DNA from: an archaeon
GTDB taxonomy: Archaea > SpSt-1190 > DYHY01
Assembly (NCBI GenBank): GCA_037442745.1
Contig: JBBIPP010000003.1
Coordinates: 38,692 to 102,691, forward strand
Direction of reading: 5' to 3'
DNA: 64,000 bases
The notes under the pieces are model-generated. The model had not been told where the DNA came from. It was given only the letters and a program-made list of their open reading frames with translations, and did no database searches. The translations under genes and the position numbers were made by a program. The first letter of the stretch is position 1. Each line of letters starts with the position of its first letter. Of the stretch, positions 29,339 to 64,000 are shown piece after piece.

Positions 29339-30436
29339 ATGAAGGCTATTGTTCTTGCGGGGGGGAAAGGGGAAGATCTCTACCCTCTGACTCTCACGCG
29401 ACCCAAGGCGCTCGCGACAATACTGAACCAGCCGATAATTGAGAGAATAATTGACAACATGCCCAAGGAAATTGACAAGATTTTCATTGCAACCGACCAC
29501 ATGGCAGGGGAGATCAAAGCGCTTTTTTCCTCAAAAGAGATGAAGCGAAAAATGGGCAGGAGAAAAATATGTGTTGTTGAGGAGGATAGGCCACTTGGGA
29601 CTGCCGGGTCAATAAAGCGTTTTGAAAAGGAGATAACCGAGACGTTTCTTGTTGTCCAAAGCGATGTTGTCTCTTCAGTCGACTATTTCAAGATGATTGA
29701 TTTCCATAGGGAGAGCGGGTCAATTGCGACAATGTCTTCATTCAAGGTGAAAAACCCGATCGATTACGGGATTCTCGGGGTAAATGAGGAAGGGCGCGTA
29801 ATGAAATTTCTCGAAAAGCCGAAAATTGACCAGGTCTTCTCGACAGTTATCAATGCGGGGGCGTATGTTTTCGAAAAATCCATTTTCGAGGAAATCCCGG
29901 CGCATGGGGTGTGCGATTTTTCGGGAGACGTCTTTCCCCGGCTTATACGAAAAGGGGGGATTGTCTCCGCATTCGAATTCAAGGGTTTGTGGATTGACAT
30001 AGGCTCGTTCAACAACTATCTTGATGCCCACAAAAACCTTCTTGAGCGGTCAATGACTTTTTCAATTTCGAGCAAATCTTCTGCTAGTACAGTTCCCCCT
30101 GTTCTCATAGGCTCCGGTGGAAAAATCGGCGCATGCACTCTTGGTCCGGGAGTCTCTATAGGGAACAATGTGAAAATTGGCAAAGGTGCGAAAATCTCGA
30201 ATTCAGTCATCTATGACGGGGTCTCGATTGGGGATGGCTGCCTAGTAAAGGAGAGCGTTCTTGGGAAAGGGGTTGTCCTTGGGAAGAATGTTGTTGCAGT
30301 GAACACCCTGATTGGGGATGGCGCAAAAGTGAAGGACAAAATAAAGATAGGCGCCCAGAGCAAAATTTGGCCGAAAACGAAGGTATCAAAGGATGTTCCT
30401 GAAAAGGAATGGTTCGGTTTCCTCAAGGAAGATTAG
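29339..30436 (+). CDS. Mannose-1-phosphate guanylyltransferase-like protein with LbH domain
   Basis: MKAIVLAGGKG..LYPLT..RPK, PLGTAG, YG, FLEKP, INAG, WIDIG and hexapeptide repeats. Confidence 0.88.
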   Translation: MKAIVLAGGKGEDLYPLTLTRPKALATILNQPIIERIIDNMPKEIDKIFIATDHMAGEIKALFSSKEMKRKMGRRKICVVEEDRPLGTAGSIKRFEKEITETFLVVQSDVVSSVDYFKMIDFHRESGSIATMSSFKVKNPIDYGILGVNEEGRVMKFLEKPKIDQVFSTVINAGAYVFEKSIFEEIPAHGVCDFSGDVFPRLIRKGGIVSAFEFKGLWIDIGSFNNYLDAHKNLLERSMTFSISSKSSASTVPPVLIGSGGKIGACTLGPGVSIGNNVKIGKGAKISNSVIYDGVSIGDGCLVKESVLGKGVVLGKNVVAVNTLIGDGAKVKDKIKIGAQSKIWPKTKVSKDVPEKEWFGFLKED

Positions 30437-31835
30437 TTCTGTTCAGTTTGGCTTGAATTTGGCTTGTTATTTCCTCGTCAACCCTTTTGCAGAAATTCTG
30501 TAGAGATACTTTCGGAATTGATGCACCTGCCGCAATGTCGTGGCCCCCTCCAAGGCCCCCGAACTCTCCGGAGACTTTTCTCATTATTTTCGAGAGCTCC
30601 AATCCGTCCTTCACAAGCTTTCTTGTCCCCCTTGCGGAAATTTTGTATTCGTTCTCCCCTTGGGAGCTTGCCACGAGGAAAACCCGCTCGGAATCAACCA
30701 GCCTTGAACTTAGGGCAATTCCCGCGACAATTCCTATTATTGTCGGCTTGATTTCGTCCAACTGCAAGAGCTGGACTGTTTTCCCAATTGGCTCAGTTCC
30801 CTTTGAAAGCAGAAGTTCCAATGCCTTGCTGAGGTTTTCCCTATGGAGAGCCAACAGTTCCCTTGTTTTGGCAAATGCGCTTCCCCTCTCTCCCTGGCAG
30901 ACTTTGATTCCCAAAAGAGCCTCTTCATTCCGTCCGCATGCGTTTAGGAGAGTTGAGAACTCCGTCGCATCTCGGAGCTCGGTTCCCTTGGGCTCGTTCG
31001 GGAAAACATAGTATTCGGAGATAATTCTTTTCAGCTCCCAGGGAAGGAGCCCTGCCTGTATTCCATATTGGTAGAGCCCGGTAATTAGGGCAGTTTTTCC
31101 TTCGGGAGAAAGCTCTGAGTATGTCAGTTCGTTTGGAATGCCAAGTTTCTCGAGAAATTTTACGGCTCCCTGCGGATTTCCGGATAGCCCCTTGAAGAAA
31201 GGGTCAGTTGCAGTTGAGAGGAGGTCTGGGAGCTTTCTGGTCTCCCTTCCGAAGAAAGACACTCCTTTCTCCGCTCTGACAGTTCCCAGTTTCTCCCCGA
31301 TTTCGAGTATTCTCCGGTTGAGGCCAATCAGGCCTTCTTGTCCTTGGACATCTCCGACTGCTCCGGTAATTGCCAAAGGGGCATTCTCCGGAATTTCTGA
31401 AATTTCCAGGGAAACTAGGAAAGCCAGTCCTGCGCCAGAAACTTCTTTCGACCCGGAAAACCCATGTTCAACTGCGTTCAAATGGACAATTCTTTCGGGC
31501 AAATCCGCTTTCTCCGGCTCGTGGTGGTCTATTATTACCGATTTTCCGGGCAAGTGTTCGGAAATAAGTGATATTTGTCCGCTTCCGAGATCCGTGAATA
31601 TTGTTTCCCTGTCTTTCGGAACAAGGAGAATTGTTTCCCTATCCAACTGCCTTATTGGAACTAAAAGGGGGTTTTTGCCTATTTTTTTCAAAGTTCGGTC
31701 AATTATTGCCCCTGCACACAGCCCGTCAGCGTCAATGTGCGTTACAATTGTCGGGGATTCAAAACTAGCTATTGTCAGAGCAGTTTCCCTGACTTTGTTC
31801 CAAAACAGCTCCGGATTTTCTTTGTTTTCAGGCAA
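30423..31835 (-). CDS. recJ: Archaeal RecJ/Cdc45-like DHH phosphoesterase
   Basis: HIDADG, TDLGSG, IDHH, SGAG, GAVGD, LLNACGR and GGGHDIAAGA. Confidence 0.9.
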   Translation of the reverse strand: MPENKENPELFWNKVRETALTIASFESPTIVTHIDADGLCAGAIIDRTLKKIGKNPLLVPIRQLDRETILLVPKDRETIFTDLGSGQISLISEHLPGKSVIIDHHEPEKADLPERIVHLNAVEHGFSGSKEVSGAGLAFLVSLEISEIPENAPLAITGAVGDVQGQEGLIGLNRRILEIGEKLGTVRAEKGVSFFGRETRKLPDLLSTATDPFFKGLSGNPQGAVKFLEKLGIPNELTYSELSPEGKTALITGLYQYGIQAGLLPWELKRIISEYYVFPNEPKGTELRDATEFSTLLNACGRNEEALLGIKVCQGERGSAFAKTRELLALHRENLSKALELLLSKGTEPIGKTVQLLQLDEIKPTIIGIVAGIALSSRLVDSERVFLVASSQGENEYKISARGTRKLVKDGLELSKIMRKVSGEFGGLGGGHDIAAGASIPKVSLQNFCKRVDEEITSQIQAKLNRTNLP

Positions 31836-31893: not shown

Positions 31894-32640
31894 TCAGGAA
31901 GTTTTCCCGTCTCCGAGAACATAATAGATGCGCTCTGACAAGCCCCCCCAAGAGAACCCGCCATTAATTTTCTTCTTCTCAGCAATTTTGAAAATTCCTT
32001 CAGCAACCCCTTTTCCTAGATGATAATAAGTAAGCCGTAGGGAAAGCCTTCCGTATCTGCGGTTGTATTTTTTGTTAATTTCATATCCATAAATTGGTGT
32101 TTCTTCTCCTAGTAAAATTTCAGCAATATTGTCTCTTATTTTATGTCCAGTTTTAACTAGTTTTTTCATTTCTCTTGGAACTTTTCCTTCCTTGTCGAGA
32201 ATTCCTTGCCTTATGTTTGAGCTTGTCAGGGGGAGTTTGTTCTCCCCATAGGTCAAAGGAATTTCAATTCTCATCAAAGGCATTAATCCTGCTTCCTGCC
32301 GGAGAGAGTTCAGCTCGCCAATCTGATCCTTTCCGAACGAGTTTCCTTCTCCAGTTGCAATTAACTGAAGAGATTGATAGGATTCTATTGTTTTGTAATA
32401 ATTGTCGTTGATTGATATTATTTGAAATTCTATATTCCTTCCGGACAAGTAATTCTCGAGCTGGCGCATTCTCGTCTCAAATGTCTGGATCGCATTCCCT
32501 TCGGCAAAGTCAATGCAGACAAGGAGGTTTTTTGATAATGCAGTTAGTTTGTCAAGGAAGTCTCTCTGACCTTTGTGGAGAAAGTCAAAAGTTCCAAAAC
32601 AGGCAATTGTTGGATTCTTTTTTTCTCCGGAATTTTCGAT
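31894..32640 (-). CDS. Phosphopantetheine adenylyltransferase-like domain fused to a C-terminal winged helix; probable ATC start
   Basis: The frame stays open upstream of the track's ATG (32469) up to 32640 and encodes IACFGTFDFLHKGQ; R-EAGL-PL and TSSNIRQG follow; wHTH region YGYEI..YYHL..SWG..YYVLG. Confidence 0.7.
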   Translation of the reverse strand: MENSGEKKNPTIACFGTFDFLHKGQRDFLDKLTALSKNLLVCIDFAEGNAIQTFETRMRQLENYLSGRNIEFQIISINDNYYKTIESYQSLQLIATGEGNSFGKDQIGELNSLRQEAGLMPLMRIEIPLTYGENKLPLTSSNIRQGILDKEGKVPREMKKLVKTGHKIRDNIAEILLGEETPIYGYEINKKYNRRYGRLSLRLTYYHLGKGVAEGIFKIAEKKKINGGFSWGGLSERIYYVLGDGKTS

Positions 32641-32709
32641 TTATCCTCTCCCTCCTTCTCTTCTTTGGGAAAATGATTTTTCTGGGAGTCTTGCTATGTA
32701 TATATAATT

Positions 32710-32889
32710 TTCCATATGGAAATAATGGAAATAACAACAAAAGAATCCAACTTTCCATCCGAAATGTTGGAGAGAGTATCAAAAAATTCCAGTGGAAATG
32801 AAGGTTGTCCCAAAGAGAATCCAAAATCTTCCACAGGAAACAAAGGTCAAACAACAACAATAATTAAAAACCCTTTCTTCCAATGGAAA
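32710..32889. other. Probable replication origin with ORB elements
   Basis: TTCCAGTGGAAATGAAGG (32787), TTCCACAGGAAACAAAGG (32829), TTCCAATGGAAA (32878), TTCCATCCGAAATG (32753) and palindrome TTCCATATGGAA (32710); AT-rich; directly upstream of cdc6. Confidence 0.82.
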
Positions 32890-32919
32890 AATCCGAGAAC
32901 CGGAGTTGAAGAAATAATA

Positions 32920-34122
32920 ATGCAGAGCTCTTTGAGGGAAATGTTCAATGCATATCTCGACAGGCAATCCATTTTCCTCAACAAGAATGCATTGTCAGAT
33001 ACCTATCTTCCGGAAAACCTTGTCCACAGGGAAGGGGAGCAAAAACAGATTGCCGGAATTCTTCTCCCCGCTCTACGTGGGGAAAAGCCCTCGAACCTCT
33101 TCATTTACGGAAAAACCGGGACTGGGAAGACTCTGGGAACCCGGATTGTTTGCTTGGAACTGGAGAAATTCTCCATTGCCCGGAACCTGCCATTGAAGGT
33201 TGTTTATGTCAATGCCCAGATGAAGAAAGTTGCAGATACAGAATATCGGCTAATTTCGAATTTGGCAGGCCAGTATGGGGCAACTCTCCCGCCAACAGGG
33301 CTCCCTACTGAGAAAATCTATCGCGAATTCATCAAAGCAGTCGAGAATGAAAAGTCCCTTTCAATAATTGTAATTGACGAAATAGACACCGTTGTACAGA
33401 AATGCGGGAATGAATTCCTTTACAATTTGACAAGAATTAACAACGAATTGACAAAATCAAGGGTAAGTGTTATTGGGATAACAAATGACTTGAAGCTCCT
33501 CTCGAACATTGAGTCAAGAGTAAAGTCAAGCCTCTCGGAGGAAGAGCTTGTTTTCAAGCCATATAACGCAAACCAATTGAACGACATTCTTTCTACTCGG
33601 GCGGAAATTGCGTTCGCTCCCGGAGTAATTGACCAGTCAGTAATTCCCAAATGCTCCGCATATGCAGCAAAAGAGCACGGAGATGCAAGAAGAGCTCTCA
33701 ATTTATTGAGACTCGCTGGAGAGATTGCTGAACGGAGCGCTTCCCCAAGAATAGAAGCTGAACACGTTGACCTAGCGCTGGAAAAGCTTGATATTGACAC
33801 TGTTGTCGAATTTGTGAAAAGCCAGCCTCTCCAGTCAAAAGCTGTCCTATACAGCATAATTTCATTGGAAAACTCGAAACCAGACTATACTACCGGGGAT
33901 ATTTACGAGAAATACCGCTCAGTCTGCGAAATATTCAGGCAGAAATGCCTTACCCAAAGAAGAGTATCCGACCTGATAAATGAACTGACTAGCGTCGGAA
34001 TTCTTGCGGCACGCGTTGTTTCCAAGGGAAGATATGGGCGGAGCAAGGCAGTTGACTTGTTGGTAAAGGGCCCTGCTTTGGACAAAATAACGAAAGCAAT
34101 TTCCTCCGAAGTTGCCTATTGA
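32920..34122 (+). CDS. cdc6: Orc1/Cdc6 replication initiator
   Basis: YLPENLVHRE, Walker A GKTGTGKT, Walker B IVIDEID, HGDARRAL and wHTH GRYGR; ATG at 32920. Confidence 0.96.
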   Translation: MQSSLREMFNAYLDRQSIFLNKNALSDTYLPENLVHREGEQKQIAGILLPALRGEKPSNLFIYGKTGTGKTLGTRIVCLELEKFSIARNLPLKVVYVNAQMKKVADTEYRLISNLAGQYGATLPPTGLPTEKIYREFIKAVENEKSLSIIVIDEIDTVVQKCGNEFLYNLTRINNELTKSRVSVIGITNDLKLLSNIESRVKSSLSEEELVFKPYNANQLNDILSTRAEIAFAPGVIDQSVIPKCSAYAAKEHGDARRALNLLRLAGEIAERSASPRIEAEHVDLALEKLDIDTVVEFVKSQPLQSKAVLYSIISLENSKPDYTTGDIYEKYRSVCEIFRQKCLTQRRVSDLINELTSVGILAARVVSKGRYGRSKAVDLLVKGPALDKITKAISSEVAY

Positions 34123-57152: not shown

Positions 57153-57185
57153 ACCTATAAATAACCAGAAAGCGAATCAGTTTCT

Positions 57186-57926
57186 GTGGAGAACCCAAGG
57201 CATATTGTCGAAATAGTAGAGACCAAATTCGTCAAGCTCGATTCCCCTATTGTTATTGAGGGCTTCCCATCAGTTGGGCTAGTTGGCTCAATTGCAACAG
57301 AATATCTGGCAACAAAGCTCGAAATGGAGGAAATAGGTTTTCTGAGATCTGACAGGCTCCCGCCAGTGACAATTGTAAAGGACGGAGTTCCAAAAACCCC
57401 CATACGTCTATATGCGAAAGACAACCTCATTGTTTTCGTCTCGGACACCGCAATCCCGGAGAACCTCACATATGAGATTGCCCGGACAATTGTTGCCTGG
57501 TCCAAAAAGCACGGAGCGAAAAGGATAATATCAATCGGAGGAATTGCAAGGGAGGAAAAGCCCGCAGAGCAAAAGCTATATGTTGTCGGAACCGACTCCG
57601 CAGAAATAAACGAAATTGTCGAAAAGCAGAAAGCAACCCCAATAAAGCTGGGGTTCTTGACAGGCCTTCTGGGAGTCCTTCTGGTGGAGTCAATGGAGAA
57701 CTCGATTCCAGCCCACGCATACCTGACCGACGCTTTCATTGATTCCCCGGACCCGAAAGCCGCCGCAAAAACCCTCGACGCAATTGCAACAGAGCTCGGC
57801 CTCTCAATTGAGACAGCGTCCCTTGTCCAGACTTCGGACAAGATTGAGAAGAAAATCAACCAGCTGATGACCCAGACAAAAAAGCACATTGACGAGTCCC
57901 ACGCATATCCGAGCGTCTACGGGTGA
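57186..57926 (+). CDS. PAC2-family proteasome assembly chaperone
   Basis: IEGFPSVGLVGSIA..L, PIRLY, SIGG and PDPKAA. Confidence 0.9.
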   Translation: MENPRHIVEIVETKFVKLDSPIVIEGFPSVGLVGSIATEYLATKLEMEEIGFLRSDRLPPVTIVKDGVPKTPIRLYAKDNLIVFVSDTAIPENLTYEIARTIVAWSKKHGAKRIISIGGIAREEKPAEQKLYVVGTDSAEINEIVEKQKATPIKLGFLTGLLGVLLVESMENSIPAHAYLTDAFIDSPDPKAAAKTLDAIATELGLSIETASLVQTSDKIEKKINQLMTQTKKHIDESHAYPSVYG

Positions 57927-58125: not shown

Positions 58126-61100
58126 ATGGCGGAAAACAAGGCAATATTTGACGGATTTGCGAACAAGTATTCACTGCAAAAAACGCTAAGGTTCGGGCTT
58201 ATTCCCGACTCCGAAAGCAAAAAATGGATTGAAAAAAACCTTGTAATTGAAAAGGACGAAAAGCTTGCCGAGGAATACAAGAAAGCCAAGAAAATCATCG
58301 ACAAGGTTCACAAGGCATTCATTGAGAGCGCCCTTGAAAAGCTGAAATTGAACGAAAAAGCCCTCACCGCCTTCGAAAAAGAGACTGCCAAGACAAAGAA
58401 GGAACGGGACAAGAAGACAATAGAGAAAATACAGGCTTCCTTGAGAAACGAGGTTGCAGATTCGTTCAACAAGGACAAGGAAGAATTCAAAGCAATGTTT
58501 TCCGAGAAAATGATAAAGGAAAACGCCCCCCGCTTCTGCAACACTGCTGAAGAAAAGGCGACAATGAAACTATTCGACAACTTCACGACATATTTCAAGG
58601 AATTCCATAAGAACAGAAAAAACATCTATTCCAATGAGGCAAAGGCAACCTCAATTGCTTTCAGGATTGTGCACGAAAACCTGGTCACATTTGTCGACAA
58701 TCTCAGGATATTCGCAAAAATAAGGGAGGGCGGTCTTGACCTTGACAAGGCCGAGTATGAGCTGAAAAGCATTTTAGGAAAAGAAAAAATCGAAAAGCTA
58801 TTCTCAATAGAATATTTCAACAAAGTTCTTTCCCAGGGCGGAATAGACTTTTACAACAGAATAATCGGGGGCGAATTCGAGGAAGGCTCAAGAAAGAAAA
58901 TCCGCGGACTAAATGAACTCATAAACCTCCACAACCAAAAGGAACGAGGCAAGCTCCCCCGTTTCAAACAACTCAAAAAGCAGATTCTAAGCGACAGAAA
59001 GAAATCCCTGGATTTCGGATTTTTGGATGATTCGGAGCTTCTTCAGGCAATTGAAGAGTTCTACTTGAAGGAACTTTCCGATGAAAACGGCAAACGGACG
59101 CCCGAAATGCTAAGGGCGCTATTTGAACGGGCTGAAGAATTCGATATTGAAAAAATACACCTGAGAAACGACAGCACCTTGAGGGAACTTTCGAACAAAT
59201 TGTTCGGCGACTGGTCAGCAATAGAAAACGCCCTTTCAGAGCATTACGAAAAAGAAAATCCGTCAAAAGACACGAAAAAATACGAAAAAGACAAGGAAAA
59301 ATGGCTCAAGCAGGACCAATTCCCGATAGCAACAATAGAGACGGCGCTTTCCTTATATGAACACGAAAAAGTCGACAAGGGAAAATGCAAGGGGCTATTT
59401 TTTAGGCAGTTTTCCTCGTTCAAAAAGGAAGAGGACGACAAGGAGAACTTGCTTGAGAGACTCGAGATTTCCTACAATAGAGCAAAGCCGATCCTTGAGA
59501 ACAAGTCGCCCGGAAACAGGCTTGCTTCAGACGAACAGGCAAAGGGAAAGCTGAAAGCCTTGCTGGACGCCCTGATTGACATTCTCCATTTTGTCAAGTC
59601 CCTCCGCCTGAAAGACGCGGCAATTTCCGACAAGGACTATTCCTTCTACGGGGAATTCGACCCGCTTTTTGAAAGGCTTGACGGAATAGTTGGGATTTAC
59701 AACAAGACACGGAACTATCTGACGAAAAAGCCCTACAGCACCGAGAAAATAAAGCTCAATTTTGAGAACTCTGTCCTGTTAGGTGGCTGGGATAGAAACA
59801 TAGAAGACACCAAGGGAGGAGTTATTTTCAGAAAAGATGGCCAGTTTTATCTCGGAATAATAAACAAAAATAACAAAACAATATTGAAGAATCCTCCGAA
59901 GGCAAAGGATGGAGAAGTTGCCTTTGAGAAGATGTTTTACAAATTAATACCTAACCCTGCCAGAGACCTTCATCACACAATTTTATCAAAAAAGAGAAGT
60001 GCTAAATATAAACCAACAAAAACCCTCCTTGAAAAATACGAACAAAAAAAGCACATCAAGGGCGACAATTTCGACAAGAAATTCTGCCACGAGCTGATAG
60101 ATTTCTTCAAGGAATCGATAAAGAAAAACCCCGATTGGGAGACTTTCAACTTCAAATTCTCCGAGACATCTTCATACGAGGACATTAGCGGATTTTACAG
60201 GGAAGTTGGACGACAAGGCTACAAGGTTGTTTTCGAGAGAATTCCCGCAAGCTACATAGAAACCCTTGTCAAGGAGGGAAAGCTCTACCTTTTCAAAATA
60301 TGGAGCAAGGACTTTTCCAAAGACAGCAAAGGGACGCCGAACATGCACACCCTGTATTGGAGGGCGCTCTTTGACGAGAAAAACTTGAAAGAGCCTATCT
60401 ACAAGCTTAACGGAGAGGCCGAAATGTTCTTCAGGAAAAGGTCGGTCGAGCCCAAAATAACGCACCCAGCGGGAAAGCCGATACCCAACAAGAACCCGGA
60501 CAACCTCAAAAAGGAAAGCGTCTTCAAATACGACCTGATAAAGGACCGGCGGTATTCCCTCGACAAGTTCCAGTTCCACGTTCCGATTACTACGAATTTC
60601 GGGAGCGAAGGGCAGGAATTTATTGACTATGATGTCCGGGACGCGATCAAAAAGAGTCCAGTCAGAATAATAGGAATTGACAGGGGGGAACGCAATCTCC
60701 TCTATCTCTCAATGATTGACGAGAACGGGAAAATTCTACTGCAGGAATCCCTGAACAAAATAACCTCCCTCTATGGCGGGGGAAAGAAAACAACCGACTA
60801 CAATTCACTCCTTGCAAGAAGCGAGGCTGGGCGGGACGAGGCAAGACGGGATTGGAAAAAAATCGAGAACATCAAGGAAATCAAGGAAGGCTACCTGTCC
60901 CAAGCAGTCCATAAAATCGCGACTCTAATGGTCGAGAACGAGGCAATTGTCGTAATGGAGGACTTAAATTCCGGCTTCAAGAGGGGGCGAACTAAGGTGG
61001 AGAAGCAAGTCTACCAAAAGTTCGAGAGAATGCTGATTGAAAAGCTAAACTATCTTGTTTTCAAGAAACGTTCTCCCGAAGAAGCGGGAGGATTGAGGAA

Positions 61101-61845
61101 CGCCCTCCAATTGACAAGCAAGTTCAAGAGCTTCGAGAAGCTCGGAAAACAGAGCGGATTTCTGTTCTATATTCCGGCGGCAATGACAAGCAAAATTGAC
61201 CCGGTAACCGGGTTTGCCAACGAGCTCAACCCGAAATACGAGAGCGTCGGCAAGTCAAAAGAGTTTTTCTCCAAGTTCGAGAGAATATCTTACAACAGCA
61301 AAAAGAACTGGTTCGAGTTTTCGTTCGACTATTCGAATTTCAAGACAAAGGACGGGCTTGAAGGGAAATGGGTTGTATGCTCAACCCCGCACGAACGATT
61401 CTATAGGAATGGCGGAGCCAAGGGCGGAGCCAAGGGCGAAACTCTCCCGATGAACGCGAACGAAGAGCTGAAAAAATTGTTCGGGGAATTCGGGATTGAA
61501 TATTCAACTGGGGATTGCCTGAAGAAGGAAATAGTTTCAAAGGATTCGAAGGAGTTCTTCAAGAAACTAACCCGGGTTCTTGCGTCAATCCTGTCCCTCC
61601 GGCAGAACAACGGAAAAACTGGGCAGGATGAGCAAGACTACATACTTTCGCCAGTGGAACCCTTCTTCTGCTCCCTTGACGGAAAAGACGGGCTTCCAAA
61701 GGACGCCGACGCAAACGGAGCATATAACATTGCTAGAAAAGGCCTCCTGGCAGTCCGCCAAATAAGGTCTGCAGAAGACCCGAAAAAGGCCAGATTGGCA
61801 ATCCGCAACAAAGAGTGGCTGGAATTTGCGCAGGCAATGAAGTAA
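58126..61845 (+). CDS. cas12a: Type V-A CRISPR effector Cas12a (Cpf1)
   Basis: KYSLQKTLRFGL; RuvC motifs IGIDRGERNL, VMEDLN and DADANGAYNIA; RNase-site region NMHTLYW / KLNGEAE / FHVPI. Confidence 0.98.
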   Translation: MAENKAIFDGFANKYSLQKTLRFGLIPDSESKKWIEKNLVIEKDEKLAEEYKKAKKIIDKVHKAFIESALEKLKLNEKALTAFEKETAKTKKERDKKTIEKIQASLRNEVADSFNKDKEEFKAMFSEKMIKENAPRFCNTAEEKATMKLFDNFTTYFKEFHKNRKNIYSNEAKATSIAFRIVHENLVTFVDNLRIFAKIREGGLDLDKAEYELKSILGKEKIEKLFSIEYFNKVLSQGGIDFYNRIIGGEFEEGSRKKIRGLNELINLHNQKERGKLPRFKQLKKQILSDRKKSLDFGFLDDSELLQAIEEFYLKELSDENGKRTPEMLRALFERAEEFDIEKIHLRNDSTLRELSNKLFGDWSAIENALSEHYEKENPSKDTKKYEKDKEKWLKQDQFPIATIETALSLYEHEKVDKGKCKGLFFRQFSSFKKEEDDKENLLERLEISYNRAKPILENKSPGNRLASDEQAKGKLKALLDALIDILHFVKSLRLKDAAISDKDYSFYGEFDPLFERLDGIVGIYNKTRNYLTKKPYSTEKIKLNFENSVLLGGWDRNIEDTKGGVIFRKDGQFYLGIINKNNKTILKNPPKAKDGEVAFEKMFYKLIPNPARDLHHTILSKKRSAKYKPTKTLLEKYEQKKHIKGDNFDKKFCHELIDFFKESIKKNPDWETFNFKFSETSSYEDISGFYREVGRQGYKVVFERIPASYIETLVKEGKLYLFKIWSKDFSKDSKGTPNMHTLYWRALFDEKNLKEPIYKLNGEAEMFFRKRSVEPKITHPAGKPIPNKNPDNLKKESVFKYDLIKDRRYSLDKFQFHVPITTNFGSEGQEFIDYDVRDAIKKSPVRIIGIDRGERNLLYLSMIDENGKILLQESLNKITSLYGGGKKTTDYNSLLARSEAGRDEARRDWKKIENIKEIKEGYLSQAVHKIATLMVENEAIVVMEDLNSGFKRGRTKVEKQVYQKFERMLIEKLNYLVFKKRSPEEAGGLRNALQLTSKFKSFEKLGKQSGFLFYIPAAMTSKIDPVTGFANELNPKYESVGKSKEFFSKFERISYNSKKNWFEFSFDYSNFKTKDGLEGKWVVCSTPHERFYRNGGAKGGAKGETLPMNANEELKKLFGEFGIEYSTGDCLKKEIVSKDSKEFFKKLTRVLASILSLRQNNGKTGQDEQDYILSPVEPFFCSLDGKDGLPKDADANGAYNIARKGLLAVRQIRSAEDPKKARLAIRNKEWLEFAQAMK

Positions 61846-61866: not shown

Positions 61867-62424
61867 ATGGAGAACCCCATATCAATATCGAGCCTGAACG
61901 ACTTTGTCTTCTGCCCGAGAAGCATCTACTTCCACAACCTCTACTATTTCCTCGACGAGGGAACATACAAAGACGTTCCCCAGGCAAAGGGCCGGGCAAG
62001 CCACGAAACAATAGAGTCCGGGAAATATTCTTCCAAAGCAGGGATTCTGAAGGCAATTTCGGTGTATAGCGAGGAGCTGGGGATTGCCGGGAAGATAGAT
62101 CTGCTAGATCTCGAGAAAAAGACCTTGATAGAGCGCAAGCGCAAAATATCTCAGCTATATGAAGGATACCTTCTTCAGGTATATGCGCAGTATTTCTGCC
62201 TGATTGAGATGGGCTTTTCCGTCGAGAAAATAAAAATACACTCGGTTTCCGACAACAAGACCTACGACATTCCGATTCCCGGAGAGGCCGAAAAAGCCCG
62301 GCTCAAGGAAATTCTTCTGAAAATGAATTCCTACGACCTCGCCTTCCCCTTCTCGCAGAACCCGAAAAAATGCGCCGGGTGCATATACAGGAACGCGTGC
62401 GACATTTACGAAAATGATGAGTAG
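61867..62424 (+). CDS. cas4: CRISPR-associated Cas4 (type V-A)
   Basis: LNDFVFCPRSIY, GKID, ERK, QVYAQ and C..C.Y...C. Confidence 0.95.
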   Translation: MENPISISSLNDFVFCPRSIYFHNLYYFLDEGTYKDVPQAKGRASHETIESGKYSSKAGILKAISVYSEELGIAGKIDLLDLEKKTLIERKRKISQLYEGYLLQVYAQYFCLIEMGFSVEKIKIHSVSDNKTYDIPIPGEAEKARLKEILLKMNSYDLAFPFSQNPKKCAGCIYRNACDIYENDE

Positions 62425-63382
62425 ACCCGATTTTCTGGCCAAGCAAATAGTGCTCGTCGAGACGAGTTCCTCAATGAAGTTGCGGATCAAGAACTCCAAC
62501 ATGGTCTTGGAGGATTGCGAGGGAAAGACTGCGCTTCAGAACTCGATGCACAGAATTTTCCTGATATTCGTCCTAGGAGAGACTTCAATAACCTCAGTTT
62601 TCATAAAGGAGGCGAAAAAGCACGCAGTCCCGGTAATCTTCCTGAACTACAACCTGAAGGCATACCACGCGGTTTTTCCCGACGACCGGGGGAATTTTCT
62701 CCTGCGAAAAAAGCAGTACGAGTCAAAGGACAATTTCGCAATAGCGAAAAAAATCGTCCTAAACAAGTCGGAAAACCAGCTTTTCCTAGCCAACTCACTA
62801 AGATACAAGACCTTGGAGGAAGCGGAAGCAATCGAGAAACTCAAGGGGCTGATTAGCCAGGTGGCGACAGCCAAAGACGACAAGGAACTTTTGGGAATTG
62901 AAGGGAACATATCCCGGCTCTATTTCGCAACATATTTCAAAAACATGGACTTTAAGGGAAGGCAGCCAAGATGCAAGGCTGACCCGATAAACCTGCTTCT
63001 CGACATAGGATATCACTATTTGTTCAATTTCATCGAAGCTAACCTCAGGCTCTACGACTTTGACCTCTACTGCGGAGTCTACCACAAATTTTTTTACCAG
63101 AGAAAATCACTCGTCTGCGACATAATAGAGCCATTCCGGCCAATAATAGACCGGCAAGTCAGAAAAATGCATAATTTGGGGCAAATGAAGGAAGACCGGT
63201 TCGAGTCAAGGAACGGGCAGTTCTACCCCAAGCCCGAGCACTCGAAAGAGTTTTCCGCAATTTTTATGAAGGAAATTCTCGCCCACAAGGAGGAAATTTT
63301 CCTTTATGTTCAGGCCTATTACCGGGCGTTCATGAAAGGGAAGGACATCTCCCAATACCCGGAGTTTTGGATGGAGCAATGA
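62414..63382 (+). CDS. cas1: CRISPR-associated Cas1
   Basis: LLGIEG, R.PR..D..N.LLD.GY and H..FY.RKSLVCDIIEPFR. Confidence 0.96.
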   Translation: MMSRPDFLAKQIVLVETSSSMKLRIKNSNMVLEDCEGKTALQNSMHRIFLIFVLGETSITSVFIKEAKKHAVPVIFLNYNLKAYHAVFPDDRGNFLLRKKQYESKDNFAIAKKIVLNKSENQLFLANSLRYKTLEEAEAIEKLKGLISQVATAKDDKELLGIEGNISRLYFATYFKNMDFKGRQPRCKADPINLLLDIGYHYLFNFIEANLRLYDFDLYCGVYHKFFYQRKSLVCDIIEPFRPIIDRQVRKMHNLGQMKEDRFESRNGQFYPKPEHSKEFSAIFMKEILAHKEEIFLYVQAYYRAFMKGKDISQYPEFWMEQ

Positions 63383-63385
63383 AAA

Positions 63386-63658
63386 ATGCTCATATTGACA
63401 TACGACATACAGGACAATCGGCTCAGGACAAAGTTTTCGAACTTTGTTTTGCAATACGGGGAACGCCTACAATACTCCGTTTATGAAATAAGGAACTCTC
63501 CGAGGATATTGGAGCTGGTCAAATTCGGGATAAAAGAAAAATTTGAACGCAAATTCGGACAGGGGGATAGCGTAATAATTTTCAACATAAAGGAAACCTC
63601 CGAAATATTGCGTTTTGGAAATGCCAAAAACGCGGAAACGGACCTCTTGATTTACTGA
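63386..63658 (+). CDS. cas2: CRISPR-associated Cas2
   Basis: YDI..NRLR and RLQYSVYE. Confidence 0.95.
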   Translation: MLILTYDIQDNRLRTKFSNFVLQYGERLQYSVYEIRNSPRILELVKFGIKEKFERKFGQGDSVIIFNIKETSEILRFGNAKNAETDLLIY

Positions 63659-63877: not shown

Positions 63878-64000
63878 GTCTAGAGCTCTGGTCTAATTTC
63901 TACTATTGTAGATCCTGAAAACGGGTTAAAAGCGCGAAAGTCTAGAGCTCTGGTCTAATTTCTACTATTGTAGATGGACGACAGGTTCGACGAATGATTG
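63878..64000 (+). CRISPR. Type V-A CRISPR array (truncated by the window end)
   Basis: 36-bp repeat GTCTAGAGCTCTGGTCTAATTTCTACTATTGTAGAT at 63878-63913 and 63940-63975; 26-bp spacer CCTGAAAACGGGTTAAAAGCGCGAAA; partial second spacer 63976-64000. Confidence 0.97.

What the first reader, a model, noticed from the sequence alone, without database searches (positions are those of the whole stretch)
59771..60020. PAM-interacting segment of cas12a is compositionally foreign: possible natural PAM-module swap
Hand counts: 59771-60020 is about 36% GC with 2 CpG in 250 nt. The left flank 59521-59760 is about 47% GC with 13 CpG, and the right flank 60061-60300 is about 42% GC. The segment uses TTA/AGT/GAT/TAT codons where the flanks prefer C-ending codons. 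It covers the WED-II/PI residues that are altered. Inference: recent intragenic recombination imported a PAM-recognition cassette from another cas12a, which would be a route to PAM diversification.
Basis: partly seen in the sequence, partly recalled or inferred. Interest (0 to 1): 0.75.

Follow-up and report, generated by a model that had tools for sequence, protein, structure and literature searches.

The report
Mosaic PAM-reading block in archaeal cas12a
A CRISPR nuclease gene (cas12a) in a small archaeal genome contains a roughly 276-base stretch with foreign-looking codon usage, exactly where the protein has lost both lysines that normally read the target-adjacent DNA motif, so this block was probably replaced and the enzyme may recognise different targets.

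Summary
Window 59771-60020 has 36% GC and 2 CpG. The flanks have 47.5% GC with 13 CpG, and 42.5% GC with 11 CpG.

The dip sits at synonymous sites. GC3 is 0.35 over codons 550-641, against 0.59 expected from the amino acids. Lys/Asn/Ile content does not explain it. It is extreme on three scales:
- within the gene: 6 of 5000 shuffles reach it;
- within the genome: 2nd of 484 long ORFs;
- among 79 other cas12a genes: 1 of 1970 grid windows is as low.

The tract coincides with the block where the two closest homologues part ways. P0002 shares the odd block at 80% identity. P0003 keeps the canonical one, at 54% identity there against 87% elsewhere. P0001 and P0002 have lost both PAM-reading lysines: FnCas12a K613 corresponds to I559 and K671 to H617.

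Recombination is inferred, not shown. No donor was found. The block still groups with P0003 (support 94/90). No DNA of P0002 or P0003 was reachable, and read mapping was closed.

Best reading: a replaced block from an unsampled, AT-richer cas12a (about 0.5). Main rival: an in situ adaptive burst (about 0.27). The event is not demonstrably "recent". Interest is moderate.

The parts
58126..61845 (+). cas12a (type V-A effector), 1239 aa, intact ORF
   Evidence: ORF, translation. Pfam finds REC1, REC2, PI, RuvC and NUC, all far above their cut-offs. The best solved relative is ReChb (8qwd) at E=0, followed by FnCas12a and LbCas12a.
59773..60048 (+). Mosaic tract, codons 550-641 (WED-II PAM loop through the first part of the PI domain). 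Low GC3 (0.35), 3 CpG, and a burst of amino-acid change relative to P0003.
   Evidence: for composition. for divergence. The boundaries have a support interval: start at codons 540-574, end at codons 631-644.
59782..59823 (+). WED-II PAM loop, codons 553-566 (GGWDRNIEDTKGGV). I559 replaces the conserved lysine (FnCas12a K613, AsCas12a K548). K563 sits at the AsCas12a N552 position.
   Evidence: PDB alignments. This column is K in 116 of 117 other homologues and in 79 of 79. The role of K613 comes from a passage of PMC6507119.
59935..60048 (+). PI-domain lysine-helix block, codons 604-641 (FYKLIPNPARDLHHTILSKKRSAKYKPTKTLLEKYEQK). R613 sits at FnCas12a K667 and H617 at FnCas12a K671 (AsCas12a K607). 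This block has the lowest GC3 (0.24).
   Evidence: Alignments. GC3 is 9 of 38 against 22.1 expected, reached in 0 of 20000 simulations. 15 of the 16 residues 612-627 differ from P0003. The K671 column is K in 109 of 117 homologues and 77 of 79.
61411..61438 (+). Perfect 12-nt tandem duplication (GGAK-GGAK) in the NUC region. It accounts for P0001 being 4 aa longer than P0002 and P0003.
   Evidence: Tandem repeat finder. There is a 4-residue gap in P0002 and P0003 at P0001 positions 1095-1098.
61867..62424 (+). cas4
   Evidence: Pfam Cas_Cas4.
62414..63382 (+). cas1
   Evidence: Pfam Cas_Cas1, E 2e-53.
63386..63658 (+). cas2
   Evidence: Pfam CRISPR_Cas2, E 6.5e-13.
63878..64000 (+). Start of the CRISPR array: two identical 36-nt repeats (63878-63913 and 63940-63975), one 26-nt spacer and a partial spacer. 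The contig ends here and the array continues at the end of contig C9.

Best explanation
This is a complete type V-A CRISPR locus (cas12a-cas4-cas1-cas2-array) in a 1.14-Mb archaeal metagenome-assembled genome. Its cas12a is a mosaic.

A tract of about 276 nt (codons about 550-641, window 59773-60048) spans the WED-II PAM loop and the lysine helix of the PI domain. It was most likely replaced by homologous recombination or gene conversion with a divergent, AT-richer cas12a allele. That allele would belong to the same poorly sampled sub-clade. The crossovers would lie in the conserved motifs that flank the tract (KKPYSTEKIKLNFENS upstream, YEQKKHIKGDNF downstream).

The event happened in the ancestor of the P0001 and P0002 lineages, or the tract was exchanged between them. 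P0003 keeps the original canonical block.

The replacement removed both conserved PAM-reading lysines (K to I559, K to H617). It also put basic residues at neighbouring positions (K563, R613). The enzyme is therefore predicted to read a PAM other than the canonical TTTV. It is also predicted to lack the lysine that acetylating anti-CRISPRs target.

Shown here: the composition break, the co-located single-branch burst of protein change, and the changed residues.
Inferred: recombination as the cause, the AT-rich donor, the changed PAM, and anti-CRISPR escape.
For: (1) The synonymous shift is not due to amino acids.
- GC3 is 32 of 92 in the tract, against 54.3 expected.
- At the 52 residues identical to P0003 it is 19, against 31.5 expected (P 5e-5).
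- The flanks are normal: 0.57 over codons 510-549 and 0.74 over codons 642-680.
- FYMINK and GARP content is unchanged relative to P0003.

(2) The rest of cas12a (GC3 0.59) and cas4, cas1 and cas2 (0.53-0.64) match the genome (0.557, sd 0.052). So only the tract is foreign.

(3) Other cas12a genes are mostly AT-rich. The rows printed from the 79 GTDB genes (23 of 79) have GC3 mostly 0.23-0.47, with two higher. An ordinary cas12a donor would therefore produce exactly such a dip.

(4) The dip is the most extreme of 80 cas12a genes at this position. On the fixed grid, 1 of 1970 family windows is as low.

(5) The protein change is a burst on a single branch.
- In 87 residues, 27 sites have P1=P2 but differ from P3, against 4.3 expected from the rest of the protein.
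- The P1-only and P2-only changes are 5 and 4, against 5.4 and 3.7 expected.
- The P1-P3 path is 1.68 in the tract against 0.16 outside it. The P3-P4 path is 1.26 against 1.13.

(6) 15 of the 16 consecutive residues 612-627 are replaced. This lies in a helix that is at least 90% conserved across the family at N612, K613, P616, K617 and F619.

(7) The composition minimum and the divergence maximum coincide: offset 6 of 1156 positions. Outside the tract, divergence and GC3 are uncorrelated (rho -0.06).

(8) The tract is unlikely to be an assembly artefact.
- The exact P0001 protein is held by both NCBI and Logan, on 2 contigs.
- P0002 carries the same architecture on 2 Logan contigs.

(9) The locus looks functional. 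The ORF is intact, the RuvC motif residues D852, E945 and D1195 are invariant, and there is an array with 7 spacers.
Against: - No donor was found. Only P0001 and P0002 match the tract in the 5.8-billion-protein index. There was nothing in JGI metagenome contigs or GTDB genomes. The best identity among 117 + 79 other Cas12a proteins is 48%. These searches need shared exact words, so they only exclude close donors.
- The tract alone still groups with P0003 (94/90), and it keeps clade-specific motifs (GQFYLGIIN, NPPK) in its middle. A single tree ((P1,P2),P3) is not rejected by the rest of the protein (p-AU 0.379). So there is no significant phylogenetic incongruence.
- The middle block 567-603 is only moderately shifted (GC3 0.41 against 0.59, P 0.011). 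The WED block 550-566 is not significantly shifted (P 0.17).
- The tract is shared with P0002, which differs from P0001 by 12% outside it. An old import should have been partly ameliorated. P1 and P2 also differ somewhat more in the tract (17 sites, 10.6 expected).
- cas12a genes in general show a small GC3 deficit here (family mean z -0.55 to -0.72).
- No DNA of P0002 or P0003 was available, and no reads, so no dS profile or breakpoint test exists.
Confidence: 0.5

Rival explanations
1. The PAM-reading elements underwent an episode of adaptive change in place, by ordinary point mutation. The driver would be phage PAM escape or anti-CRISPR pressure acting on the P0001/P0002 stem. The codon shift would be a separate or secondary local effect.
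For: - The segment tree keeps P0001+P0002 next to P0003 (94/90), with a very long stem of 1.37, or 0.73 under LG+G4.
- Clade-specific motifs are retained inside the tract.
- The changes concentrate on the two known PAM-contact elements.
- No donor was found.
- Jacobsen et al. 2020 (PMC7261169; abstract and sections 19 and 21 read) document PAM diversification between Cas12a proteins that are more than 95% identical. They propose selection by PAM-escape phages or anti-CRISPRs.
- P1 and P2 differ slightly more in the tract than expected (17 sites against 10.6).
Against: - Selection on amino acids does not predict low GC3 and CpG loss at residues that did not change (19 of 52 against 31.5 expected, P 5e-5).
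- Outside the tract, diverged and conserved residues differ in GC3 by only 0.05 (0.546 against 0.597). Divergence and GC3 are uncorrelated there.
- Replacing 15 of 16 consecutive residues of a nearly invariant helix by single steps is unusual.
- The terminal branches evolve at the normal rate.
Confidence: 0.27
2. The tract is an assembly chimera. The contig would join reads of two related cas12a genes from different organisms in the sample, through shared conserved k-mers.
For: - The genome is a metagenome-assembled draft of 20 contigs.
- The tract is flanked by stretches that are identical at protein level in all three relatives, which could provide graph junctions.
Against: - The identical 1239-aa protein is recorded from two sources, NCBI and Logan, on 2 contigs.
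- P0002 has the same flank-tract-flank architecture with a diverged (80%) version of the tract, on 2 Logan contigs.
- The genome holds no second cas12a copy or alternative allele.
Confidence: 0.06
3. The dip is a chance compositional fluctuation in a naturally variable, weakly codon-biased part of cas12a, with no special history.
For: - GC3 is heterogeneous along the gene (0.49-0.76).
- The family shows a mild GC3 deficit at this position (mean z about -0.6; 7 of 79 genes at z of -2 or below).
- The coordinates were chosen by eye.
Against: - 6 of 5000 shuffles reach the dip.
- It ranks 2nd of 484 ORFs in the genome.
- 1 of 1970 family windows is as extreme on a fixed grid.
- It coincides with the divergence block (P about 0.011).
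- The region is not fast-evolving in general: P0003 against 117 others is 0.516 in the segment and 0.493 in the rest.
Confidence: 0.07
4. The tract reflects either a DNA- or RNA-level element embedded in the gene (an AT-rich promoter, antisense RNA or pause site), or a compensated frameshift that re-read the old sequence in another frame.
For: The tract is AT-rich. A frameshift pair would change every residue in a run and move old second positions to third positions.
Against: - There are no promoter-like sites (0 found, 0.7 expected; the scan uses a bacterial sigma-70 consensus, so it is weak for an archaeon). No Rfam family matches in the tract.
- The genome has no second copy and no template repeat for a diversity-generating element.
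- The alternative frames of 59740-60080 score 14-23 against the P0003 canonical blocks, while the real frame scores 48 and 69. The one short LP..F match is 4 codons out of register.
- A frameshift cannot explain low GC3 at conserved residues.
Confidence: 0.04

Closest known systems
Canonical Cas12a (FnCas12a, LbCas12a, AsCas12a; closest solved structure ReChb, 8qwd)
   Same: - It has the same five Pfam domains.
- It is about 51% identical to ReChb over the full length.
- The RuvC motif residues are invariant.
- It has the cas4-cas1-cas2 genes and a 36-nt repeat ending AATTTCTACTATTGTAGAT.
   Different: - Both PAM-readout lysines are absent. The PMC6507119 passage states that K613 and K671 of FnCpf1 are responsible for PAM readout. 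Here they correspond to I559 and H617.
- FnCas12a K667 corresponds to R613, and AsCas12a N552 to K563.
- None of the 79 GTDB homologues lacks both lysines. In the other set of 117, only 1 lacks the first lysine and 8 lack the second.
Engineered AsCas12a variants RVR (S542R/K548V/N552R, TATV PAM) and RR (S542R/K607R, TYCV PAM)
   Same: P0001 naturally has a beta-branched hydrophobic residue at the K548 position (I559), a basic residue at the N552 position (K563), and a non-lysine at the K607 position (H617). The mapping comes chain coordinates. The variants and their PAMs come from a PMC6507119 passage. The N552R contact is described in PMC7261169 section 21.
   Different: - The S542 position is Gly (G553), not Arg.
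- H rather than R sits at the K607 position.
- About 40 further differences surround these sites.
- The PAM of P0001 is unknown: no protospacers were found for 7 of 7 spacers.
PiCas12a versus PdCas12a (Jacobsen et al. 2020, PMC7261169)
   Same: These are closely related natural Cas12a proteins with different PAM profiles. The WED-loop residue at AsCas12a K548 is Ser or Asn in them, not Lys. The authors propose selection for PAM diversification, possibly driven by anti-CRISPRs (sections 19 and 21 read).
   Different: There the difference is a handful of point substitutions (5 of 57 in the PAM-interacting domain), and no compositional or block signal is reported. Here about 40 of 92 residues change in one block, with a codon-usage break.
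Divergent PAM-interacting domains among near-identical Cas9 proteins (Nme1/Nme2/Nme3Cas9; St1Cas9 strain variants)
   Same: It is the same idea: the PAM-reading module differs sharply between otherwise very similar effectors. This is recalled (Edraki et al. 2019), not read here. only listed related papers. The abstract of PMC6961573 (listing) mentions St1Cas9 strain variants with distinct PAMs.
   Different: Those are Cas9 proteins with a C-terminal PI domain. No equivalent natural block replacement in Cas12a turned up in my searches: none of the 12 papers listed (33 matched at least 4 of the 5 terms) held 'intragenic recombination', and one search found nothing relevant. These searches are narrow, so this is not proof of absence.

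Membership tests
Cas12a / type V-A CRISPR-Cas | Domain architecture REC1-REC2-WED/PI-RuvC-NUC in a single protein of about 1200-1300 aa | tested here: met
   Pfam REC1 (E 1e-65), REC2 (2e-50), PI (4e-29), RuvC (5e-100) and NUC (6e-38). Full-length matches to solved Cas12a chains.
Cas12a / type V-A CRISPR-Cas | Intact RuvC catalytic motif residues | tested here: met
   D852 (GIDRGE), E945 (EDLN) and D1195 (DADANGAY) are invariant in a 17-sequence alignment. That these three are the catalytic residues is recalled, not tested.
Cas12a / type V-A CRISPR-Cas | Adjacent cas4-cas1-cas2 and a CRISPR array whose repeat ends in the Cas12a 3' stem-loop handle | tested here: met
   Cas4 and Cas1, Cas2. The 36-nt repeat ends ...AATTTCTACTATTGTAGAT, with 2 copies in the window and 6 on contig C9. 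That this 3' end is the usual Cas12a handle is recalled; GTAGAT as the shared repeat end is stated in PMC7261169 section 21.
Cas12a / type V-A CRISPR-Cas | Two conserved PAM-readout lysines (FnCas12a K613 in WED, K671 in PI). This is a typical feature, not a strictly defining one. | tested here: not met
   I559 and H617 occupy these columns. K is found there in 116 of 117 and 109 of 117 homologues, and in 79 of 79 and 77 of 79.
Cas12a / type V-A CRISPR-Cas | T-rich 5' PAM | not testable with these tools
   None of the 7 spacers has a match in the organism's own genome (5 or fewer mismatches) or in IMG/VR (exact prefixes of 20-22 nt).
Mosaic gene formed by intragenic homologous recombination | Compositional discontinuity confined to the tract and independent of amino-acid content | tested here: met
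Mosaic gene formed by intragenic homologous recombination | Phylogenetic incongruence between the tract and its flanks | tested here: inconclusive
   - Tract: (P1,P2) at 100/99, and joined by P3 at 94/90. A P2+P3 grouping is rejected (p-AU 0.0006).
- Rest of the protein: an unresolved trichotomy ((P2,P3) at 53), and P1+P2 is not rejected (p 0.379).
- P3+P4 on the tract is not rejected (p 0.169).

Mosaic gene formed by intragenic homologous recombination | An identifiable donor lineage for the tract | tested here: not met
Mosaic gene formed by intragenic homologous recombination | A jump in synonymous divergence, or statistical breakpoints, in nucleotide alignments with close relatives | not testable with these tools
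There are no close relatives in JGI or GTDB DNA.

The most novel reading that the evidence does not exclude
Cas12a alleles in little-sampled small-genome archaea exchange the WED-II/PI PAM-reading block as a cassette. This one produced a natural Cas12a with a lysine-free PAM readout (Ile/His, with new Lys/Arg neighbours). It would recognise a non-TTTV PAM and be insensitive to anti-CRISPRs that mimic the PAM or acetylate the PI lysine. That would be a Cas12a counterpart of the Cas9 PI-domain swaps.
Probability: 0.3. Interest if true: 0.7.

Novelty: new variant of a known kind. Interest (0 to 1): 0.5.

Why it matters
PAM choice limits where Cas12a can cut, and phages escape by mutating PAMs or by inhibiting PAM reading. 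Most known natural Cas12a PAM variation comes from a few point changes. A block-wise replacement of the PAM-reading elements would show that Cas12a specificity can also evolve in modules.

This trio gives a ready-made natural experiment: P0001 and P0002 with the odd block, and P0003 with the canonical block in an otherwise about 87-89% identical protein. It can test which residues set the PAM.

The enzyme lacks both canonical lysines yet appears to be maintained under constraint. That makes it a candidate for a new PAM specificity and for resistance to lysine-targeting anti-CRISPRs. If the cause turns out to be in situ adaptation, it is still a strong example of episodic selection on PAM readout.

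Tried and rejected
- **Amino-acid content as the cause.** Rejected.
- **A general link between lower conservation and lower GC3.** The effect is too small: 0.05 in this gene and a mean z of about -0.6 in the family.
- **A second copy, template repeat or cassette of the tract in the genome.** None found by blastn or tblastn.
- **A compensated frameshift.** Rejected.
- **An embedded promoter or RNA family.** Nothing found. The promoter scan uses a bacterial consensus and the host is an archaeon, so this is weak.
- **Donor search.**
  - The region-restricted and stand-alone word-index searches found only P0001 and P0002. P0003, at 54% identity, was not even retrieved, so these searches see only close relatives.
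  - JGI metagenome contigs gave no result with the whole protein or with the tract.
  - GTDB genome contigs gave no result with the tract.
- **cas12a in kin genomes.** 40 relatives were searched. Only one weak 55-residue match turned up.
- **PAM from protospacers.** 7 of 7 spacers had no hit.
- **Tree tests.** One AU test (P0003+P0004+P0054+P0006) did not finish in time and is not used. The trees used the first 60 or the first 20 of the 120 proteins returned; the other 60 or 100 were left out for run time.
- **Gene set.** In one search, 79 of the 80 GTDB loci gave an ORF of at least 1100 aa and were used; 1 was dropped.
- **Papers.** Supplementary files were not consulted. Document S1 of PMC7261169 (the alignment with AsCas12a) could bear on the residue mapping.

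As a result read laying could not be used, and there was no read mapping and no DNA of P0002 or P0003.
- The look-up of encoding contigs was not called, because its description says it is closed.
- One search failed on an off-by-one coordinate. I corrected it.
Full report
**What is there.** The finding lies inside a 1239-codon ORF, window 58126-61845 (+). Pfam identifies it as a Cas12a, with REC1, REC2, PI (residues 612-699), RuvC and NUC domains. It matches solved Cas12a chains over its full length; the best is the reconstructed ReChb (8qwd), followed by FnCas12a and LbCas12a.

Downstream lie cas4, cas1 and cas2. A CRISPR array follows, with a 36-nt repeat that ends AATTTCTACTATTGTAGAT. Two copies sit at 63878-63975, where the contig ends. 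Six more sit at the end of contig C9, giving 7 readable spacers in all.

The genome is a 1.14-Mb draft in 20 contigs, 94.5% complete. It encodes ribosomal protein L21e, which rang only in the four archaeal control genomes. So the host is an archaeon. That it is a DPANN-type archaeon is my inference from the genome size.

| Stretch | GC | CpG |
|---|---|---|
| 59771-60020 | 36% | 2 |
| 59521-59760 | 47.5% | 13 |
| 60061-60300 | 42.5% | 11 |

The dip is a third-position effect. GC3 falls to 0.33-0.35 over codons about 554-639, against about 0.59 in the rest of the gene. GC1 and GC2 stay ordinary.

I shuffled synonymous codons among identical amino acids across the gene. The observed 84-codon GC3 minimum was reached in 6 of 5000 shuffles. 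Two or fewer CpG in the region occurred in 0 of 1000 shuffles, and anywhere in the gene in 17 of 1000.

Maximum-likelihood change points put the tract at codons 564-641. The support intervals are 540-574 for the start and 631-644 for the end. Nearly every amino acid with a codon choice contributes; for example Pro CCT is 3 of 5 inside against 1 of 31 outside.

**Three wider nulls.**
- *The genome.* The genome's 484 ORFs of 250 aa or more have a mean GC3 of 0.557 (sd 0.052). cas12a as a whole (0.574) is native-like. Its internal dip of 0.24 is the second largest of the 484. cas4, cas1 and cas2 have GC3 0.53-0.64.
- *The family, at the homologous segment.* I fetched 80 cas12a loci from GTDB genomes; 79 gave a usable ORF. 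The amino-acid-conditioned z-score for the homologous segment has mean -0.57, sd 1.12 and minimum -3.30. This gene scores -5.01, on coordinates chosen post hoc.
- *The family, on a fixed grid.* This gene scores -4.05 at codons 560-651 and ranks 1 of 80 there. Among 1970 gene-windows from the 79 other genes, one is as low (-4.07).

The family does show a mild deficit at this position (mean z -0.55 to -0.72), as it does at the N-terminus. This is far too small to explain the dip, and the PI region is not special family-wide.

**The tract is also a block of protein divergence.** The 5.8-billion-protein index holds only two close relatives: P0002 (87% identity) and P0003 (85%). The next is at 53%.

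| Comparison | Segment 550-636 | Rest of protein |
|---|---|---|
| P0001 vs P0003 | 0.54 | 0.87 |
| P0001 vs P0002 | 0.80 | 0.88 |
| P0003 vs 117 other Cas12a (mean) | 0.516 | 0.493 |
| P0001 vs 117 other Cas12a (mean) | 0.39 | 0.49 |

So the region is not generally fast-evolving. P0003's block is the canonical one, and the block shared by P0001 and P0002 is the derived one.

Site patterns make this sharper. In the 87 residues, 27 sites have P1=P2 but differ from P3, against 4.3 expected from the other 1152 sites. The P1-only and P2-only changes are 5 and 4, against 5.4 and 3.7 expected. Sites where all three differ number 8, against 1.5 expected. This is a burst on one branch, followed by roughly normal rates.

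The 84-codon window of greatest P1-P3 divergence starts at codon 550. The window of lowest GC3 starts at codon 556. That is an offset of 6 among 1156 positions, or about 0.011 if the two were independent. Outside the tract, divergence and GC3 are uncorrelated (rho -0.06).

**Which residues changed.** HMMER alignments to solved chains give the mapping below, using a native-length FnCas12a chain. The AsCas12a equivalents follow from the native-length AsCas12a chain coordinates in the same call.

| P0001 residue | FnCas12a | AsCas12a |
|---|---|---|
| I559 | K613 | K548 |
| K563 | - | N552 |
| R613 | K667 | - |
| H617 | K671 | K607 |
| K623 | K677 | - |

A review passage states that K613 and K671 of FnCpf1 are responsible for PAM readout. 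The same passage states that AsCpf1 S542R/K548V/N552R reads TATV PAMs and S542R/K607R reads TYCV PAMs (PMC6507119, passages seen).

Conservation of these columns:
- The K613 column is K in 116 of 117 other homologues and in 79 of 79.
- The K671 column is K in 109 of 117 and 77 of 79.
- None of the 79 GTDB homologues lacks both lysines.

P0002 shares I559, K563, R613 and H617. P0003 keeps K, N, K and K at these positions. Between P0001 and P0003, 15 of the 16 consecutive residues 612-627 differ. This lies in a helix whose N612, K613, P616, K617 and F619 are at least 90% conserved in the family.

P0001 thus naturally carries a hydrophobic residue where the engineered RVR variant has Val, and a basic residue where RVR has Arg. 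From this I infer an altered PAM, but did not test it. None of the 7 spacers found a protospacer in the organism's own genome or in IMG/VR.

**Recombination or in situ change?** The key discriminating result is. Within the tract, the 52 residues that are identical between P0001 and P0003 have GC3 0.37 (19 observed, 31.5 expected, P 5e-5). That is as low as at the 40 changed residues (0.33). The immediate flanks are normal: 0.57 for codons 510-549 and 0.74 for codons 642-680.

Selection on amino acids cannot lower GC3 and strip CpG at unchanged residues. Imported DNA from an AT-richer gene can. Such genes are the norm in this family: the rows printed from the 79 other cas12a genes (23 of 79) have GC3 mostly 0.23-0.47, with two higher.

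The low-GC3 run also extends about 8 codons past the last amino-acid difference, into the conserved LLEKYEQKK. The tract is bounded by two strongly conserved motifs. That is where crossovers between diverged homologues would be expected, but this is inference.

Against recombination:
- The tract alone still groups P0001+P0002 with P0003 (94/90, not starred), on a very long stem of 1.37 changes per site. The stem is 0.73 under LG+G4 with 20 rows.
- Clade-specific motifs (GQFYLGIIN, NPPK) survive in the middle of the tract.
- The rest of the protein gives an unresolved trichotomy, with (P2,P3) at 53. It does not reject P1+P2 (p-AU 0.379). So there is no significant incongruence.
- The tract's placement is itself soft. 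P0003+P0004 is not rejected (p-AU 0.169), whereas P2+P3 is rejected on the tract (p 0.0006).
- No donor was found anywhere I could search. All of these searches depend on shared exact words or on the sets in hand.
- The sub-blocks are uneven. GC3 is 0.24 in codons 604-641 (0 of 20000 simulations as low), 0.41 in codons 567-603 (P 0.011) and 0.47 in codons 550-566 (P 0.17). The imported part may therefore be shorter than the whole tract, or patchy.
- The block is shared with P0002, which is 12% diverged elsewhere. The event is therefore not demonstrably recent. A strong composition signal surviving that long requires either a very AT-rich donor or a later exchange between lineages.

A donor from the same poorly sampled sub-clade reconciles the tree with the composition. 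This sub-clade has only three members among 5.8 billion proteins. That reconciliation is my inference.

However:
- The exact P0001 protein is recorded from both NCBI and Logan, on two contigs.
- P0002 has the same architecture, with a diverged copy of the tract, on two Logan contigs.
- The genome contains no second cas12a or alternative allele.

A chimera is therefore unlikely.

**Other ideas tested and dropped.**
- A compensated frameshift: the alternative frames score 14-23 against P0003's canonical blocks, while the true frame scores 48 and 69.
- A template repeat or cassette elsewhere in the genome: none.
- An embedded promoter or RNA family: none, with the caveat that the promoter consensus is bacterial.

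**Comparison with what is known.** The gene is a member of Cas12a/type V-A by every defining feature tested. It departs in one typical feature, the two PAM lysines.

Natural PAM diversification between close Cas12a orthologues is in print. PiCas12a and PdCas12a are more than 95% identical and have distinct PAMs. The residue at AsCas12a K548 is Ser or Asn in them. The authors propose selection by PAM-escape phages or anti-CRISPRs, one of which acetylates a PAM-recognition residue (PMC7261169; abstract and sections 19 and 21 read). That case involves a few point changes, not a block with a codon-usage break.

Sharply divergent PAM-interacting domains among near-identical Cas9 proteins (the Nme1/2/3Cas9 case) are the nearest analogue. 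I recall that work and did not read it here; one search gave only a listing.

My two literature searches aimed at Cas12a recombination or mosaicism returned no paper describing a natural block replacement in Cas12a. In one search, none of the 12 papers listed (33 matched at least 4 of the 5 terms) held the phrase 'intragenic recombination'. These searches are narrow and cover open-access text only. The identity of the acetylated lysine (the AcrVA5 work) is recalled, not read.

**Verdict.** It marks a discrete block that carries a lysine-free PAM readout, shared by one of the two closest relatives.

- The most likely cause is replacement of the block by recombination with an unsampled AT-richer cas12a (about 0.5).
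- An in situ adaptive burst with an unexplained codon shift is the main rival (about 0.27).
- Chimera, chance and embedded-element explanations are minor.

The tract is a foreign module with altered PAM residues. 'Recent' and 'imported from another cas12a' remain unproven. The finding is a new variant of a known kind and is of moderate interest. It offers a clean natural trio for testing how the PAM-reading block sets Cas12a specificity.

Noticed in passing
window 31926-32750: This is the most GC-poor stretch of the whole window (GC 0.34-0.37). It lies between a DHH/DHHA1 (RecJ/GAN-like) gene at 30423-31835 (-) and an orc1/cdc6 gene at 32716-34122 (+). It is probably the archaeal replication origin.
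   Followed up: partly
G000 contig C9:21417-25214 (L083:418-4215): A 1266-aa ORF with no Pfam match has the largest intragenic GC3 dip of the 484 long ORFs in the genome (0.25 below its mean, near codons 1016-1100). It may be another mosaic gene.
   Followed up: partly
window 61411-61438: A perfect 12-nt tandem duplication (GGCGGAGCCAAG, 2.3 copies) encodes GGAK-GGAK in the NUC region. P0002 and P0003 lack exactly 4 residues at P0001 positions 1095-1098. So this is a P0001-specific slippage insertion, and it explains the 1239 versus 1235 aa lengths.
   Followed up: partly
window 63878-64000, and the end of contig C9 (minus strand, first ~490 bases): The CRISPR array is split across two contig ends, and its C9 part contains a run of N. 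This is the usual assembly breakage at repeats. The two contigs are presumably adjacent.
   Followed up: partly
cas12a residues about 805-846 (window about 60538-60663): This is a second cluster of sites where P0003 differs from P0001=P0002 (identity 0.70-0.78 against 0.90-0.93). It has no GC3 anomaly in P0001. It could be a change specific to the P0003 lineage or another exchanged patch.
   Followed up: no
loci L073, L063, L025 and L057 (cas12a of Bacteroidales/Prevotellaceae-type MAGs and a Segatella strain): These cas12a genes also show a GC3 deficit in the homologous WED-II/PI segment (z -2.9 to -3.3). The family mean there is slightly negative, but no more so than at the N-terminus.
   Followed up: partly
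window 57155-57926: Directly upstream of cas12a, two overlapping ORFs of about 245 aa lie on opposite strands. The minus-strand one has no Pfam match. A weak SNORA56-like hit at 57624-57756 (E 0.15, far below the gathering score) is most likely chance.
   Followed up: no
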